A DNA stretch of 63,371 nt, the filler included, from Rozella allomycis CSF55 (lineage: Eukaryota), in assembly GCA_000442015.1 (NCBI GenBank). It is 5 parts of 5 records of this genome, joined end to end, with 100 filler letters (N's around TTAATTAATTAA, not from the genome) between each part and the next. Parts side by side here need not be neighbours in the genome. Positions count along the whole stretch, not along the records: positions 1 to 28,020 come from KE561146.1; 4 more parts are not named here. One strand, written 5' to 3'. Position 1 is the first letter of the stretch, and each line of letters starts with the position of its first letter. Below, piece after piece: positions 10,189 to 10,593 of the stretch. The notes under the pieces were generated by a model. It saw only the letters and a list, made by a program, of their open reading frames with translations. It had not been told where the DNA came from and did no database searches. Made by a program: the position numbers and the translations under genes.

Positions 10189-10195
10189 TATAAAT
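10189..10195 (+). promoter_or_regulatory. TATA box of the snoRNA host transcript
   Basis: TATAAAT 48 nt upstream of the first GTAAGT donor. Confidence 0.55.
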
Positions 10196-10264
10196 AGGCG
10201 CAGCTGTGGATCAACCCCTGGAGAAAAAATTTGAAGGTAAGTATTCTACATTTATTTTGTATTT

Positions 10265-10334
10265 TCGGATGATGATTGTAACATGTCCTAGGACGCAATG
10301 CAGAAAAACCAATGGAATTCCTCGTTGCTGACTA
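10265..10334 (+). ncRNA. Box C/D snoRNA, snR57-like (18S Gm, yeast position 1572 equivalent)
   Basis: Box C ATGATGA 10269-10275; box D CTGA 10328-10331. Guide GGAATTCCTCGTTG is complementary to conserved 18S CAACGAGGAAUUCC; the D+5 rule selects the G of CAACG. Confidence 0.82.
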
Positions 10335-10408
10335 CTCTTTCTTTTTATATCTTTCTTCTTGAAACGATCTAACTTTAGGTAAGTAATTATGCAATGCAAA
10401 TAATCTTT

Positions 10409-10476
10409 TTTACTGATGATAAAATCACCAAAAAGGCTGAAACAAAATGCTGAGAAATCATGCACCACACTGATCT
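10409..10476 (+). ncRNA. Box C/D snoRNA, snR40/SNORD32-like (18S Gm, yeast position 1271 equivalent)
   Basis: Box C TGATGA 10414-10419, D' CTGA 10437-10440, C' ATGCTGA 10447-10453, D CTGA 10470-10473. Guide CATGCACCAC is complementary to 18S GUGGUGCAUG. Confidence 0.78.
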
Positions 10477-10593
10477 TTCTACATTCTTTTTGTTTTTTAA
10501 AACAAATCTAACTCTAGTTTCCGATTGATACACCCTTTGTAACACATAATAAAGTTTTGTTAATCAATAATTCTATGATTTCAGAAATATTTA

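What the first reader, a model, noticed from the sequence alone, without database searches (positions are those of the whole stretch)
10189..10553. Hidden non-coding host gene with two snoRNA introns joined by a zero-length exon (AG|GTAAGT recursive splice site)
Seen: between PCNA and PCS60 lie TATAAAT (10189), a short non-coding exon, intron 1 (10237-10378, GTAAGT...CTAACTTTAG), intron 2 starting at the very next base (10379-10517, GTAAGT...CTAACTCTAG), then AATAAA. Each intron (142 and 139 nt) holds one C/D snoRNA with box D about 40 nt upstream of the branch A. Both have textbook donor and branch signals and are 4-5 times longer than the ~30-nt introns of neighbouring genes, which generally lack CTAAC. 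Known: intronic snoRNAs are released from debranched lariats, one per lariat, and tiny internal exons occur in fungal snoRNA clusters. Inference: removing intron 1 joins the exon-1 end (GAAG) to GTAAGT, recreating a donor, so recursive splicing gives each snoRNA its own lariat with no exon between. The locus is invisible to ORF-based annotation. I cannot confirm whether this arrangement has been reported in this lineage.
Basis: partly seen in the sequence, partly recalled or inferred. Interest (0 to 1): 0.88.

Follow-up and report, generated by a model that had tools for sequence, protein, structure and literature searches.

The report
Two abutting snoRNA introns in Rozella
Between two ordinary genes of the fungal parasite Rozella lie two back-to-back introns, each carrying a small RNA that guides ribosomal RNA methylation, with no exon between them; this layout is already documented in other fungi, so it is a new example rather than a new mechanism.

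Summary
The window is Rozella allomycis. Between PCNA and an AMP-binding acyl-CoA ligase (PCS60-like) lie two introns, 10237-10378 and 10379-10517. Both read GTAAGT...ATCTAACTnTAG, and they abut as AG|GTAAGT. That junction motif occurs once in the window against 0.01 expected. Each intron carries one box C/D snoRNA. The first has 14 nt antisense to 18S around the yeast Gm1572 (snR57) site. The second has 11 bp to 18S at the Gm1271 site and its best Rfam hits, below threshold, fall in the SNORD32/33 clan. All five neighbouring introns are 27-29 nt and none has CTAAC.

The layout is not new. Juxtaposed snoRNA introns with no exon between them, spliced stepwise, are documented in Ascomycota by Luo 2013 (at least 61 exon losses), Donovan 2016 and Chen 2018. 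My searches found no report for Rozella.

No RNA data could be obtained, so actual use of the internal sites is inferred. The "separate non-coding host gene" is not shown either: the ligase ATG lies only 76 nt after intron 2, so the introns may sit in its 5' UTR.

Verdict: a new member of a known kind, of modest interest.

The parts
9208..10117 (+). PCNA gene (upstream neighbour). My model has four introns: 9369-9397, 9629-9656, 9737-9765 and 9847-9875 (29, 28, 29, 29 nt).
   Evidence: Pfam PCNA_N and PCNA_C on three exon translations. ORF-preserving intron model.
10189..10195 (+). TATAAAT, candidate TATA box, 48 nt before the first donor.
   Evidence: The motif is not enriched in the window (36 against 29.4 expected). 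The spacing resembles three genes whose ATG lies 36-52 nt after TATAAA. Function is inferred.
10196..10236 (+). Region that must hold the transcription start and a very short first exon ending ...TTTGAAG. It has no ATG.
   Evidence: The start site is unknown.
10237..10378 (+). Intron 1, 142 nt. Donor GTAAGT 10237-10242, branch motif CTAAC 10369-10373 (branch A 10372), acceptor AG 10377-10378.
10265..10335 (+). snoRNA 1 (ends approximate). C box 10270-10275, D box 10328-10331. The guide 10314-10327 gives 14 Watson-Crick pairs to the 18S motif CAACGAGGAATTCC. The fifth position falls on the G of CAACG, which I equate (from recall) with yeast Gm1572, the snR57 site.
   Evidence: The 18S motif is seen in a printed 18S sequence. 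Yeast site table. The same guide plus D box has a C box 50-60 nt upstream in 17 eukaryote-like metagenome matches. No Rfam family match.
10379..10517 (+). Intron 2, 139 nt. Donor GTAAGT 10379-10384 starts at the base after intron 1's AG. Branch motif CTAAC 10508-10512 (branch A 10511), acceptor AG 10516-10517.
10409..10477 (+). snoRNA 2 (ends approximate). C 10414-10419, D' 10437-10440, C' 10448-10453, D 10470-10473. The D guide 10458-10468 pairs (10 Watson-Crick pairs plus 1 G-U) with the 18S motif GTGGTGCATGG. The fifth position falls on the G two nt 3' of the snR55/Um1356 site, which equals yeast Gm1271. The target of the D' guide (10421-10436) is unresolved.
   Evidence: Rfam below threshold: snoMe18S-Um1356 28.6 bits over the full model with a 2-nt offset before box D, and Z221/R21b 21.6 bits. 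The clan CL00054 also holds Z195/SNORD33/SNORD32. 18S motif. Site table.
10518..10593 (+). Downstream exon, which is either the 3' exon of a tiny non-coding host RNA or the 5' leader of the ligase mRNA. It holds AATAAA at 10548-10553, an out-of-frame ATG at 10577 and a conceivable 46-nt intron GTAACA...CAG at 10539-10584.
   Evidence: All functional readings are inferred.
10594..12183 (+). AMP-binding acyl-CoA ligase (PCS60 / oxalate-CoA ligase-like), with one 27-nt intron at 11132-11158.
   Evidence: My 339-aa query from this gene (window 11164-12180) is 100% identical over 100% of its length to deposited Rozella allomycis CSF55 protein P0001, 520 aa. tblastn of the whole P0001 covers 10594-12180. 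Pfam AMP-binding.

Best explanation
A single RNA polymerase II transcript, probably starting some 25-35 nt after the TATAAAT at 10189, carries two directly abutting spliceosomal introns. Each houses one box C/D snoRNA about 40 nt upstream of its branch point. The internal exon has been lost and has length zero.

The two introns cannot be excised at the same moment, because the acceptor of intron 1 and the donor of intron 2 share one phosphodiester bond. They are therefore removed one after the other. The most likely order is intron 1 first, which joins ...GAAG to GTAAGT and rebuilds a consensus donor for intron 2. This matches the 5'-to-3' stepwise order found in ascomycete snoRNA clusters.

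Each lariat is then debranched and trimmed by exonucleases to the snoRNP-protected ends. The products are one guide for 2'-O-methylation of 18S at the snR57-type site (G in CAACG) and one for the G in GGUG*UGCAUGG (the snR40 / SNORD32-type site), the latter carrying a second guide of unknown target.

Shown: the sequence anatomy, its improbability by chance, and the guide complementarity. Inferred: transcription, use of the internal splice sites, the order of removal, and processing. Whether the spliced exons form a throw-away non-coding RNA or the 5' UTR of the downstream ligase mRNA is open, at roughly even odds.
For: Both introns have consensus GTAAGT donors and identical ATCTAACTnTAG tails. 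The abutting junction occurs once against 0.01 expected. The composite donor plus C box plus D box pattern matches only these two places, against 0.02 expected.

The guides carry 14 and 11 base pairs to motifs seen in printed 18S sequences. Their fifth-position rule falls on sites listed as methylated in yeast. snoRNA 2 aligns end to end with an Rfam family of the SNORD32/33 clan, though below threshold. snoRNA 1's guide plus D box recurs with a C box 50-60 nt upstream in 17 eukaryote-like metagenome matches.

The two introns share one geometry: donor to C box 33 and 35 nt, D box to branch A 41 and 38 nt, branch A to acceptor 6 nt. They are about five times longer than 5 of 5 neighbouring introns. 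No ATG-initiated ORF spans the region on either strand: the 98-codon minus-strand frame at 10211-10507 has no Met.

The same architecture, with EST and RT-PCR proof of stepwise splicing, exists in ascomycete snoRNA clusters.
Against: No transcript, junction, lariat or small-RNA evidence is available for this organism. snoRNA 1 matches no Rfam family, and snoRNA 2 stays below every gathering score. Neither snoRNA has a terminal stem, and the folds are no better than shuffles. The organism's own rRNA was not available, so complementarity was checked only against motifs in other eukaryotes' 18S. The 6-nt gap between branch A and the acceptor is short. Luo 2013 could not exclude that only the first donor is used with alternative acceptors. 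No relative of Rozella could be found to test conservation of the junction.
Confidence: 0.72

Rival explanations
1. Same two snoRNA introns, but there is no separate non-coding gene. The introns lie in the 5' UTR of the acyl-CoA ligase (PCS60-like) mRNA, which starts at the TATAAAT promoter at 10189.
For: The ligase ATG (10594) is only 76 nt after intron 2. This leaves almost no room for a poly(A) site plus an independent promoter: in three TATA-bearing genes of the window the ATG lies 36-52 nt after the TATA, while AATAAA (10548) is 46 nt before this ATG. There is no canonical TATAAA in the 200 nt before the ligase ATG. The genome is very compact, with 40 nt between the ligase's stop codon and the end of the convergent downstream ORF.
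Against: The spliced leader would be about 90 nt and would carry an out-of-frame ATG at 10577. TATA-bearing genes here seem to have leaders of a few tens of nt at most. AATAAA is present at 10548. 22 of the 27 ORF starts listed have no TATAAA-type motif in the 200 nt upstream, so a TATA-less ligase promoter is possible. ATAATAAA, 38-46 nt before the ATG, could itself serve as a weak TATA element. An acyl-CoA ligase is an unusual host, since hosts are usually translation-related genes (recalled).
Confidence: 0.42
2. One 281-nt intron (10237-10517) is removed in a single step, using only the first donor and the last branch point and acceptor. The internal AG|GTAAGT is unused or used only occasionally, and the two snoRNAs are separated afterwards by nucleases.
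For: Luo 2013 explicitly left open that only the first donor works and picks among several acceptors. Exon skipping occurs as a minor pathway in Candida clusters. The 6-nt branch-to-acceptor gap of intron 1 is short.
Against: A perfect CTAAC-N3-AG directly followed by a perfect GTAAGT is expected 0.01 times in the window, so neutral retention is unlikely. Intron 2 has the same 6-nt branch-to-acceptor geometry and must use it. Exonuclease trimming of one lariat would leave the roughly 80-nt spacer joining the two snoRNAs, so an extra endonuclease would be needed (inference). Box D lies about 40 nt before a branch motif in both units.
Confidence: 0.1
3. The snoRNAs are made independently of splicing, either from their own promoters or from a polycistronic precursor cut by an RNase III-type enzyme as in Saccharomyces. 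The splice-like signals would then be relics.
For: In Saccharomyces and close relatives the homologous clusters are processed from unspliced transcripts.
Against: Both sets of splice signals are intact and consensus. No stem-loop of the kind RNase III cuts stands out: the folds of both introns are not better than shuffles. No promoter-like element precedes snoRNA 2.
Confidence: 0.04
4. Chance arrangement of short AT-rich motifs in an intergenic spacer, with no functional RNA.
For: No Rfam match reaches a gathering score. TGATGA-N40-70-CTGA alone occurs 14 times in the window. TATAAAT and AATAAA are common in this genome.
Against: The composite pattern has 0.02 expected against 2 found, and the junction 0.01 expected. 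The 14-nt and 11-bp antisense elements sit exactly next to box D and point at known methylation sites.
Confidence: 0.02

Closest known systems
'Complex introns' of fungal snoRNA clusters I-III formed by internal exon loss (Luo et al. 2013, PMC3596301; section 8 read in full, passages of other sections)
   Same: snoRNA-bearing introns lie side by side with no exon between them, in transcripts of little coding potential, one C/D snoRNA per intron, with canonical donor, branch and acceptor signals. ESTs and RT-PCR show stepwise 5'-to-3' removal. Cluster II begins with snR57, as this locus does.
   Different: That study covered Ascomycota, three Basidiomycota and Rhizopus; exon loss itself was reported only in hemi-, eu- and archiascomycetes. 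Rozella and Cryptomycota were not sampled. Here there are two snoRNAs rather than three. The second points at the Gm1271 site rather than snR55's Um1269, and no snR61 follows. The host may be a protein-coding gene's leader. The paper's Figure 1 and supplementary tables of exon sizes were not visible to me.
Nested and recursive splicing of the snR57-snR55-snR61 polycistron in the Candida parapsilosis group and C. albicans, and of snR41-snR70 in Debaryomyces hansenii (Donovan et al. 2016, PMC5033589, passages; cites Mitrovich 2010, not read)
   Same: Internal exons of size -1, 0 or 1 lie between snoRNA introns. The donor is regenerated by the upstream exon's last G. RNA-seq supports sequential removal, and two alternative orders give the same product.
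   Different: Those introns use TACTAAC and belong to Saccharomycotina. In Rozella the junction is a clean AG|GT with no shared nucleotide, so neither site is destroyed by the other's use.
Zero-length exon in S. pombe SPNCRNA.445 (snoRNA61 host), found by spliceosome profiling (Chen et al. 2018 preprint, 10.1101/226894, passages)
   Same: A 3' splice site lies immediately next to a 5' splice site inside a snoRNA host transcript, conserved among Schizosaccharomyces species. Spliceosome-bound intermediates were seen.
   Different: It is experimentally demonstrated, whereas here nothing beyond the sequence is available. It was described as one 336-nt intron removed piecewise.
Zero-nucleotide recursive splice sites ('ratchet points') of long Drosophila and vertebrate introns (recalled; mentioned through Georgomanolis 2016)
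   Same: Juxtaposed YAG|GTAAGT, with regeneration of a donor after the first step.
   Different: Those sites subdivide introns of tens of kilobases in protein-coding genes and carry no snoRNA payload. Here the apparent purpose is one lariat per snoRNA in introns of about 140 nt.
Long versus short intron classes of Microsporidia (Whelan et al. 2018, PMC6349667, passages)
   Same: In a sister lineage of Rozella, most introns are miniature with weak signals. A few long introns have strong, extended branch sites and internal UGAUGA and CUGA motifs, and are suspected to yield functional RNA. That paper also notes ~30-nt Rozella introns lacking the conserved splice motifs of microsporidian introns.
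   Different: The microsporidian long introns sit in coding genes (Poly-A binding, S23) and are single. Their snoRNA nature is unproven. No homology to this locus was tested.

Membership tests
Box C/D snoRNA | Box C (RUGAUGA) near the 5' end and box D (CUGA) near the 3' end, with an overall length of 60-100 nt | tested here: met
   snoRNA 1: GGATGATGA at 10267-10275 and CTGA at 10328-10331. snoRNA 2: CTGATGA at 10413-10419 (a C, not the consensus purine, before UGAUGA) and CTGA at 10470-10473, plus internal D' and C'.
Box C/D snoRNA | An antisense element of at least 10 nt ending next to box D or D', with the fifth paired position on a modifiable rRNA nucleotide | tested here: met
   14 Watson-Crick pairs and 11 pairs to motifs present in printed 18S sequences. 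The fifth positions correspond to Gm1572 and Gm1271 in the yeast table. The mapping of motif to yeast number rests on the 2-nt offset in the Rfam alignment and on recall. Rozella's own rRNA was not available.
Box C/D snoRNA | A terminal stem or kink-turn closing boxes C and D | tested here: not met
   No complementary flanks, and the minimum-free-energy folds are no better than shuffles (z = 0.53 and -1.73). Many intronic snoRNAs lack such a stem (recalled), so this lowers the claim only slightly.
Box C/D snoRNA | A match to a curated family model | tested here: not met
   No Rfam hit reaches a gathering score. snoRNA 2 scores 28.6 bits against a cut-off of 50 for snoMe18S-Um1356. snoRNA 1 has no meaningful hit. 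Clear homologues from metagenomes also fail Rfam, so the library is insensitive for this family.
Box C/D snoRNA | A stable small RNA bound by fibrillarin/Nop56/Nop58, and a methylated target | not testable with these tools
   No RNA run holding the locus was listed. The one run laid gave only short low-complexity matches.
Exon-less juxtaposed snoRNA introns (zero-length exon, stepwise splicing) | The 3' splice site of one snoRNA intron is immediately followed by the 5' splice site of the next | tested here: met
   CTAACTTTAG|GTAAGT at 10369-10384, unique in the window against 0.01 expected.
Exon-less juxtaposed snoRNA introns (zero-length exon, stepwise splicing) | A functional donor is regenerated after removal of the upstream intron | tested here: met
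   Joining 10236 to 10379 gives TTTGAAG|GTAAGT (read directly from the sequence).
Exon-less juxtaposed snoRNA introns (zero-length exon, stepwise splicing) | Splicing intermediates and two separate lariats are observed | not testable with these tools
   No RNA data and no whole genome held.
Fungal snoRNA cluster II (snR57-snR55-snR61) | An snR57-type guide (18S Gm1572) comes first in the unit | tested here: met
   Guide 10314-10327.
Fungal snoRNA cluster II (snR57-snR55-snR61) | The second member guides 18S Um1269 (snR55) | tested here: not met
   The guide register points at the G two nt downstream, the snR40 / SNORD32-type site. The Rfam alignment to the Um1356 family needs a 2-nt gap before box D. 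The overall best hit is still in the SNORD32/33 clan, so orthology with a register shift is possible but unproven.
Fungal snoRNA cluster II (snR57-snR55-snR61) | The third member is snR61 (25S Am1133) | tested here: not met
   No third snoRNA lies between 10518 and the ligase ATG. There is only a weak snR61 hit on snoRNA 2 (20 bits, E = 1.1).
Non-coding snoRNA host gene (UHG/GAS5-like) | Its own promoter and 3' end, and spliced exons without coding capacity | tested here: inconclusive
   No ORF in the exons, with TATAAAT and AATAAA present. Both motifs are common, and the ligase ATG follows 76 nt after intron 2.

The most novel reading that the evidence does not exclude
The exon-less pairing of an snR57-type intron with a SNORD32/33-type intron in Rozella could be the deep-branching counterpart of fungal snoRNA cluster II. 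In that case juxtaposed snoRNA introns, and the stepwise splicing they impose, would date to the root of Fungi rather than arising repeatedly in Ascomycota.

Rozella would also run two mechanistically distinct intron classes side by side. One class is ~28-nt introns with weak signals. The other is ~140-nt 'payload' introns with strong yeast-like signals, foreshadowing the long/short intron split of Microsporidia. In this reading snoRNA 2 would be a compacted double guide: an snR55-type 3' half shifted by 2 nt, joined to a 5' half whose guide overlaps the LSU stretch just upstream of the snR61 site.
Probability: 0.15. Interest if true: 0.55.

Novelty: new member of a known kind. Interest (0 to 1): 0.3.

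Why it matters
This adds two unannotated snoRNA genes to an early-diverging fungus that is the closest free-standing relative of Microsporidia. It may also correct the gene model for the leader of the downstream ligase gene.

It extends a known fungal oddity, snoRNA introns that have lost the exon between them and must be spliced in turn, from Ascomycota to Cryptomycota. That bears on whether such exon loss is ancient or recurrent.

The locus also gives a clean natural contrast within one genome. Miniature introns of 27-29 nt without a recognisable branch motif sit next to 140-nt introns with consensus GTAAGT and CTAAC. This contrast is useful for studying how a reduced spliceosome recognises introns, and why some long introns survive genome compaction.

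It does not reveal a new mechanism.

Tried and rejected
- **Whole genome.** None is held (one search was a machine error; one search returned 'no G000').
- **RNA evidence.** No RNA holder was listed. The single run with the same species label, X1, was laid anyway. Only 4 records gave 5 matched pieces of 19-37 nt in AT-rich spacers, and none fell in 10170-10754. This says nothing either way.
- **Rfam.** At gathering scores only the tRNA is found. The permissive scans are described above.
- **Naming snoRNA 1 through homologues.** Rfam on seven metagenome loci gave 0 hits at gathering. A permissive scan of one of them (L019) gave only generic weak C/D hits.
- **Metagenome scan with snoRNA 1's guide plus D box.** It returned 101 loci with 104 matches. 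18 matches in 16 loci have RTGATGA within 90 nt upstream. 17 of these look like animal or protist intronic snoRNAs, and one (L081, GC 0.62) looks like chance. Of the other 86 matches I inspected 14; most lie in what looks like prokaryotic coding sequence, and the 72 uninspected ones lie mostly in GC-rich contigs. 0 of the 18 have YAG|GTRNGT or a SNORD32/33-type guide within 600 nt on either side. No relative of Rozella and no comparator for the junction was obtained.
- **Other long candidate introns.** 9 other GTRAGT...CTRAY...YAG candidates in the window were inspected. None has a convincing snoRNA.
- **Tandem duplication of one intron unit as the origin of the AG|GT junction.** The alignment shows 74 of 143 columns identical, mostly shared signals and T-rich tails. 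This is insufficient to claim duplication.
- **Target of snoRNA 2's D' guide.** Its exact complement was found in no rRNA-related text. Only an 8-nt core (TTTTTGGT) is shared with a pan-fungal LSU primer printed in PMC4024029. The target is unresolved.
- **Secondary structure.** Not significant.
- **Bacterial promoter and terminator scan.** It found nothing and is not relevant to a eukaryote.
- **Literature.** A search for Rozella plus snoRNA gave 9 papers, and none describes this locus (passages of two were read). 'The fungal snoRNAome' does not mention Cryptomycota in its main text. Its supplements, and those of Luo 2013, could not be seen and might list Rozella or exon sizes.
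Full report
**Organism and setting.** A 339-aa query from the ORF downstream of the finding (window 11164-12180) is 100% identical over its whole length to a 520-aa protein deposited for Rozella allomycis CSF55 (sequence). 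tblastn of that whole protein covers window 10594-12180 (first row). The window is therefore from this cryptomycotan parasite of the water mould Allomyces. GC content is 32-39%. The upstream gene is PCNA, with Pfam PCNA_N and PCNA_C on three exon translations. The downstream gene is an AMP-binding acyl-CoA ligase of the PCS60 / oxalate-CoA ligase type (JGI names).

**Checking the observation.** All coordinates hold:
- TATAAAT at 10189.
- Intron 1 at 10237-10378 (142 nt, GTAAGT...CTAACTTTAG).
- Intron 2 from the very next base, 10379-10517 (139 nt, GTAAGT...CTAACTCTAG).
- AATAAA at 10548-10553.

The junction motif CTAAC-N1-8-AG|GTAAG is unique in the 63 kb on both strands, against 0.01 expected from shuffles. 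The composite GTAAGT-N20-50-TGATGA-N40-70-CTGA matches exactly these two introns, against 0.02 expected; 0 of 100 shuffles reached two. TATAAAT by itself is not enriched, at 36 against 29.4, so it counts only through its position.

The neighbouring introns are miniature, as claimed. The ligase intron is 27 nt (11132-11158, fixed by the deposited protein). My ORF-preserving PCNA model has introns of 29, 28, 29 and 29 nt. 0 of these 5 contain CTAAC. Whelan et al. likewise describe ~30-nt Rozella introns lacking the conserved splice motifs of microsporidian introns (PMC6349667, passages).

**The two small RNAs.**

snoRNA 1 has GGATGATGA (C box 10270-10275) and CTGA (D box 10328-10331). The 14 nt directly upstream of box D (10314-10327) are perfectly antisense to CAACGAGGAATTCC. 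I saw that motif inside a printed eukaryotic 18S rDNA sequence (appendix E of PMC8125830); appendices A and D differ at one base. The fifth nucleotide upstream of box D pairs with the G of CAACG. I equate this, from recall, with yeast 18S Gm1572, which the yeast table assigns to snR57 (PMC8307265, table passage).

Rfam gives no family for snoRNA 1. The library, however, also fails on clear homologues. An exact-match scan of metagenome contigs with the 18-nt guide plus D box returned 104 matches in 101 loci. 18 matches have RTGATGA within 90 nt upstream. 17 of these lie in low-GC, intron-like eukaryotic contexts with the C box 50-60 nt upstream, which is the same spacing as here. One looks like chance. 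Of the other 86 I inspected 14; most lie in what looks like prokaryotic coding sequence.

snoRNA 2 has C (10414-10419), D' (10437-10440), C' (10448-10453) and D (10470-10473). Its D guide forms 10 Watson-Crick pairs plus one G-U with GTGGTGCATGG of 18S (motif seen). Its best Rfam hit is snoMe18S-Um1356, over the full-length model at 28.6 bits against a cut-off of 50, and the alignment needs a 2-nt gap just before box D. The plant Z221/R21b family matches the guide without a gap. The clan of the Um1356 family also contains Z195/SNORD33/SNORD32. The 2-nt offset places the target on the G two nucleotides 3' of the snR55-type U, that is the Gm1271 / snR40-type site of the yeast table.

Unlike yeast snR40, which uses its D' guide for this site (PMC5824354, passage), the Rozella RNA uses the D guide. 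The D' guide (10421-10436) has no identified target. Neither RNA has a terminal stem or a fold better than shuffles.

**Anatomy of the unit.** The two introns are built alike:
- donor to C box: 33 and 35 nt;
- C box through D box: 62 and 60 nt;
- D box to branch A: 41 and 38 nt;
- branch A to acceptor: 6 nt;
- identical ATCTAACTnTAG tails.

The region has no ATG-initiated ORF on either strand. The longest frame, 98 codons on the minus strand, contains no Met. Nine other long GTRAGT...CTRAY...YAG candidates in the window hold nothing comparable.

**Mechanism (inferred).** The acceptor of intron 1 and the donor of intron 2 share one phosphodiester bond, so the two introns cannot complete splicing at the same time and one must go first. 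Removing intron 1 joins TTTGAAG to GTAAGT and yields a consensus donor. Removing intron 2 first would leave CTAACTTTAG|TTTCC, a usable acceptor. The sequence therefore allows either order.

By analogy with ascomycete clusters, the 5'-to-3' order is the more likely. There, ESTs showed 18 products lacking intron I only, 14 lacking I and II, 10 lacking all three, and none lacking a downstream intron alone (PMC3596301, section 8 read in full). Separate lariats make sense of the arrangement. After debranching, exonucleases can trim each snoRNA from both sides. A single 281-nt lariat would leave the two snoRNAs joined by an ~80-nt spacer.

**What remains open: the host.** The ligase ATG (10594) is only 76 nt after intron 2. 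In the three genes of the window with a TATAAA upstream, the ATG follows it by 36-52 nt. Here the first donor occupies that position, 48 nt after TATAAAT.

If the host were separate, its poly(A) site and the ligase promoter would have to overlap within 76 nt. If the introns belong to the ligase 5' UTR, the spliced leader would be about 90 nt with an out-of-frame ATG at 10577, unless a conceivable 46-nt intron (GTAACA 10539...CAG 10584) removes it. I put the odds near even. Only cDNA ends can decide.

**Comparison with what is known.** The layout is documented:
- Luo et al. 2013 report at least 61 internal-exon losses in snoRNA clusters I-III of hemi-, eu- and archiascomycetes. These give 'intron-intron-intron' structures that are spliced stepwise.
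- Donovan et al. 2016 describe nested splicing (exon size -1), single-base exons and recursive splicing (exon size 0) in the snR57-snR55-snR61 polycistron of the Candida parapsilosis group, and cite a zero-length exon between snR41 and snR70 in Debaryomyces (passages).
- Chen et al. 2018 demonstrate a zero-length exon in the S. pombe snoRNA61 host SPNCRNA.445 (preprint passages).

What is new here is the lineage. My searches found no description of Rozella snoRNA loci (passages).

The locus starts with an snR57-type gene followed by a SNORD32/33-clan gene, which recalls cluster II. It fails two of that cluster's three defining members, however: the second guide is shifted by 2 nt, and there is no snR61.

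**Limits.** No RNA evidence could be obtained. No Rozella rRNA and no related genome were available. The mapping of motifs to yeast residue numbers partly rests on recall.

**Verdict.** It is a new member of a known kind, of modest interest.

Noticed in passing
window 8974-9060 (+): A tRNA-Leu gene (anticodon TAG by ARAGORN; Rfam tRNA 55 bits) lies 148 nt upstream of the PCNA start codon.
   Followed up: no
window 11132-11158 (+): The ligase's only intron is 27 nt, a multiple of three, and contains an in-frame TGA. An ORF scan therefore shows two abutting ORFs in the same frame (10579-11139 and 11140-12183). All five neighbouring introns are 27-29 nt, with donors as divergent as GTACCA and GTAACC.
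   Followed up: partly
window about 6023, 19895 (-) and 46320: Three genes with TATAAAT have their ATG only 36-52 nt downstream, which implies very short 5' leaders. Two of them share the context TATAAATAG with the element at 10189.
   Followed up: partly
window 12181-12224: The ligase's stop codon and the end of the convergent downstream ORF (12224-12742, minus strand) are about 40 nt apart, showing how compact the genome is.
   Followed up: no
window about 35150-35208 and 39665-39725 (+): The 60 nt upstream of two ORF starts are nearly identical, which suggests a local gene duplication about 4.5 kb apart.
   Followed up: no
window about 34520-34578 and 61030-61090: Single N characters (ambiguous bases) occur in the assembly.
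   Followed up: no
window 44474-44539, 44585-44659 (+) and 45249-45318 (-): TGATGA-N40-70-CTGA occurs 14 times in the window against 6.5 expected (0 of 100 shuffles reach 14). Apart from the two snoRNAs, several of the rest lie in coding sequence. These three were not examined for guides and might include further snoRNAs.
   Followed up: no
L057 1730-2300 (metagenome contig, GC 0.35): Two snR57/U25-type C/D snoRNA copies sit in two successive introns of a protein-coding gene, with a normal coding exon between them. This is the conventional form of the arrangement. L025 carries two and L091 three copies of the same guide plus D box.
   Followed up: partly
window 10421-10436 (+): snoRNA 2's D' guide shares only an 8-nt core of complementarity (TTTTTGGT) with the LSU rRNA stretch printed as a pan-fungal primer. 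By recall, that stretch lies just 5' of the snR61 target. snoRNA 2 also gives a weak Rfam snR61 hit (20 bits, E = 1.1). A fused snR61/snR55-type double guide is conceivable but unsupported.
   Followed up: partly
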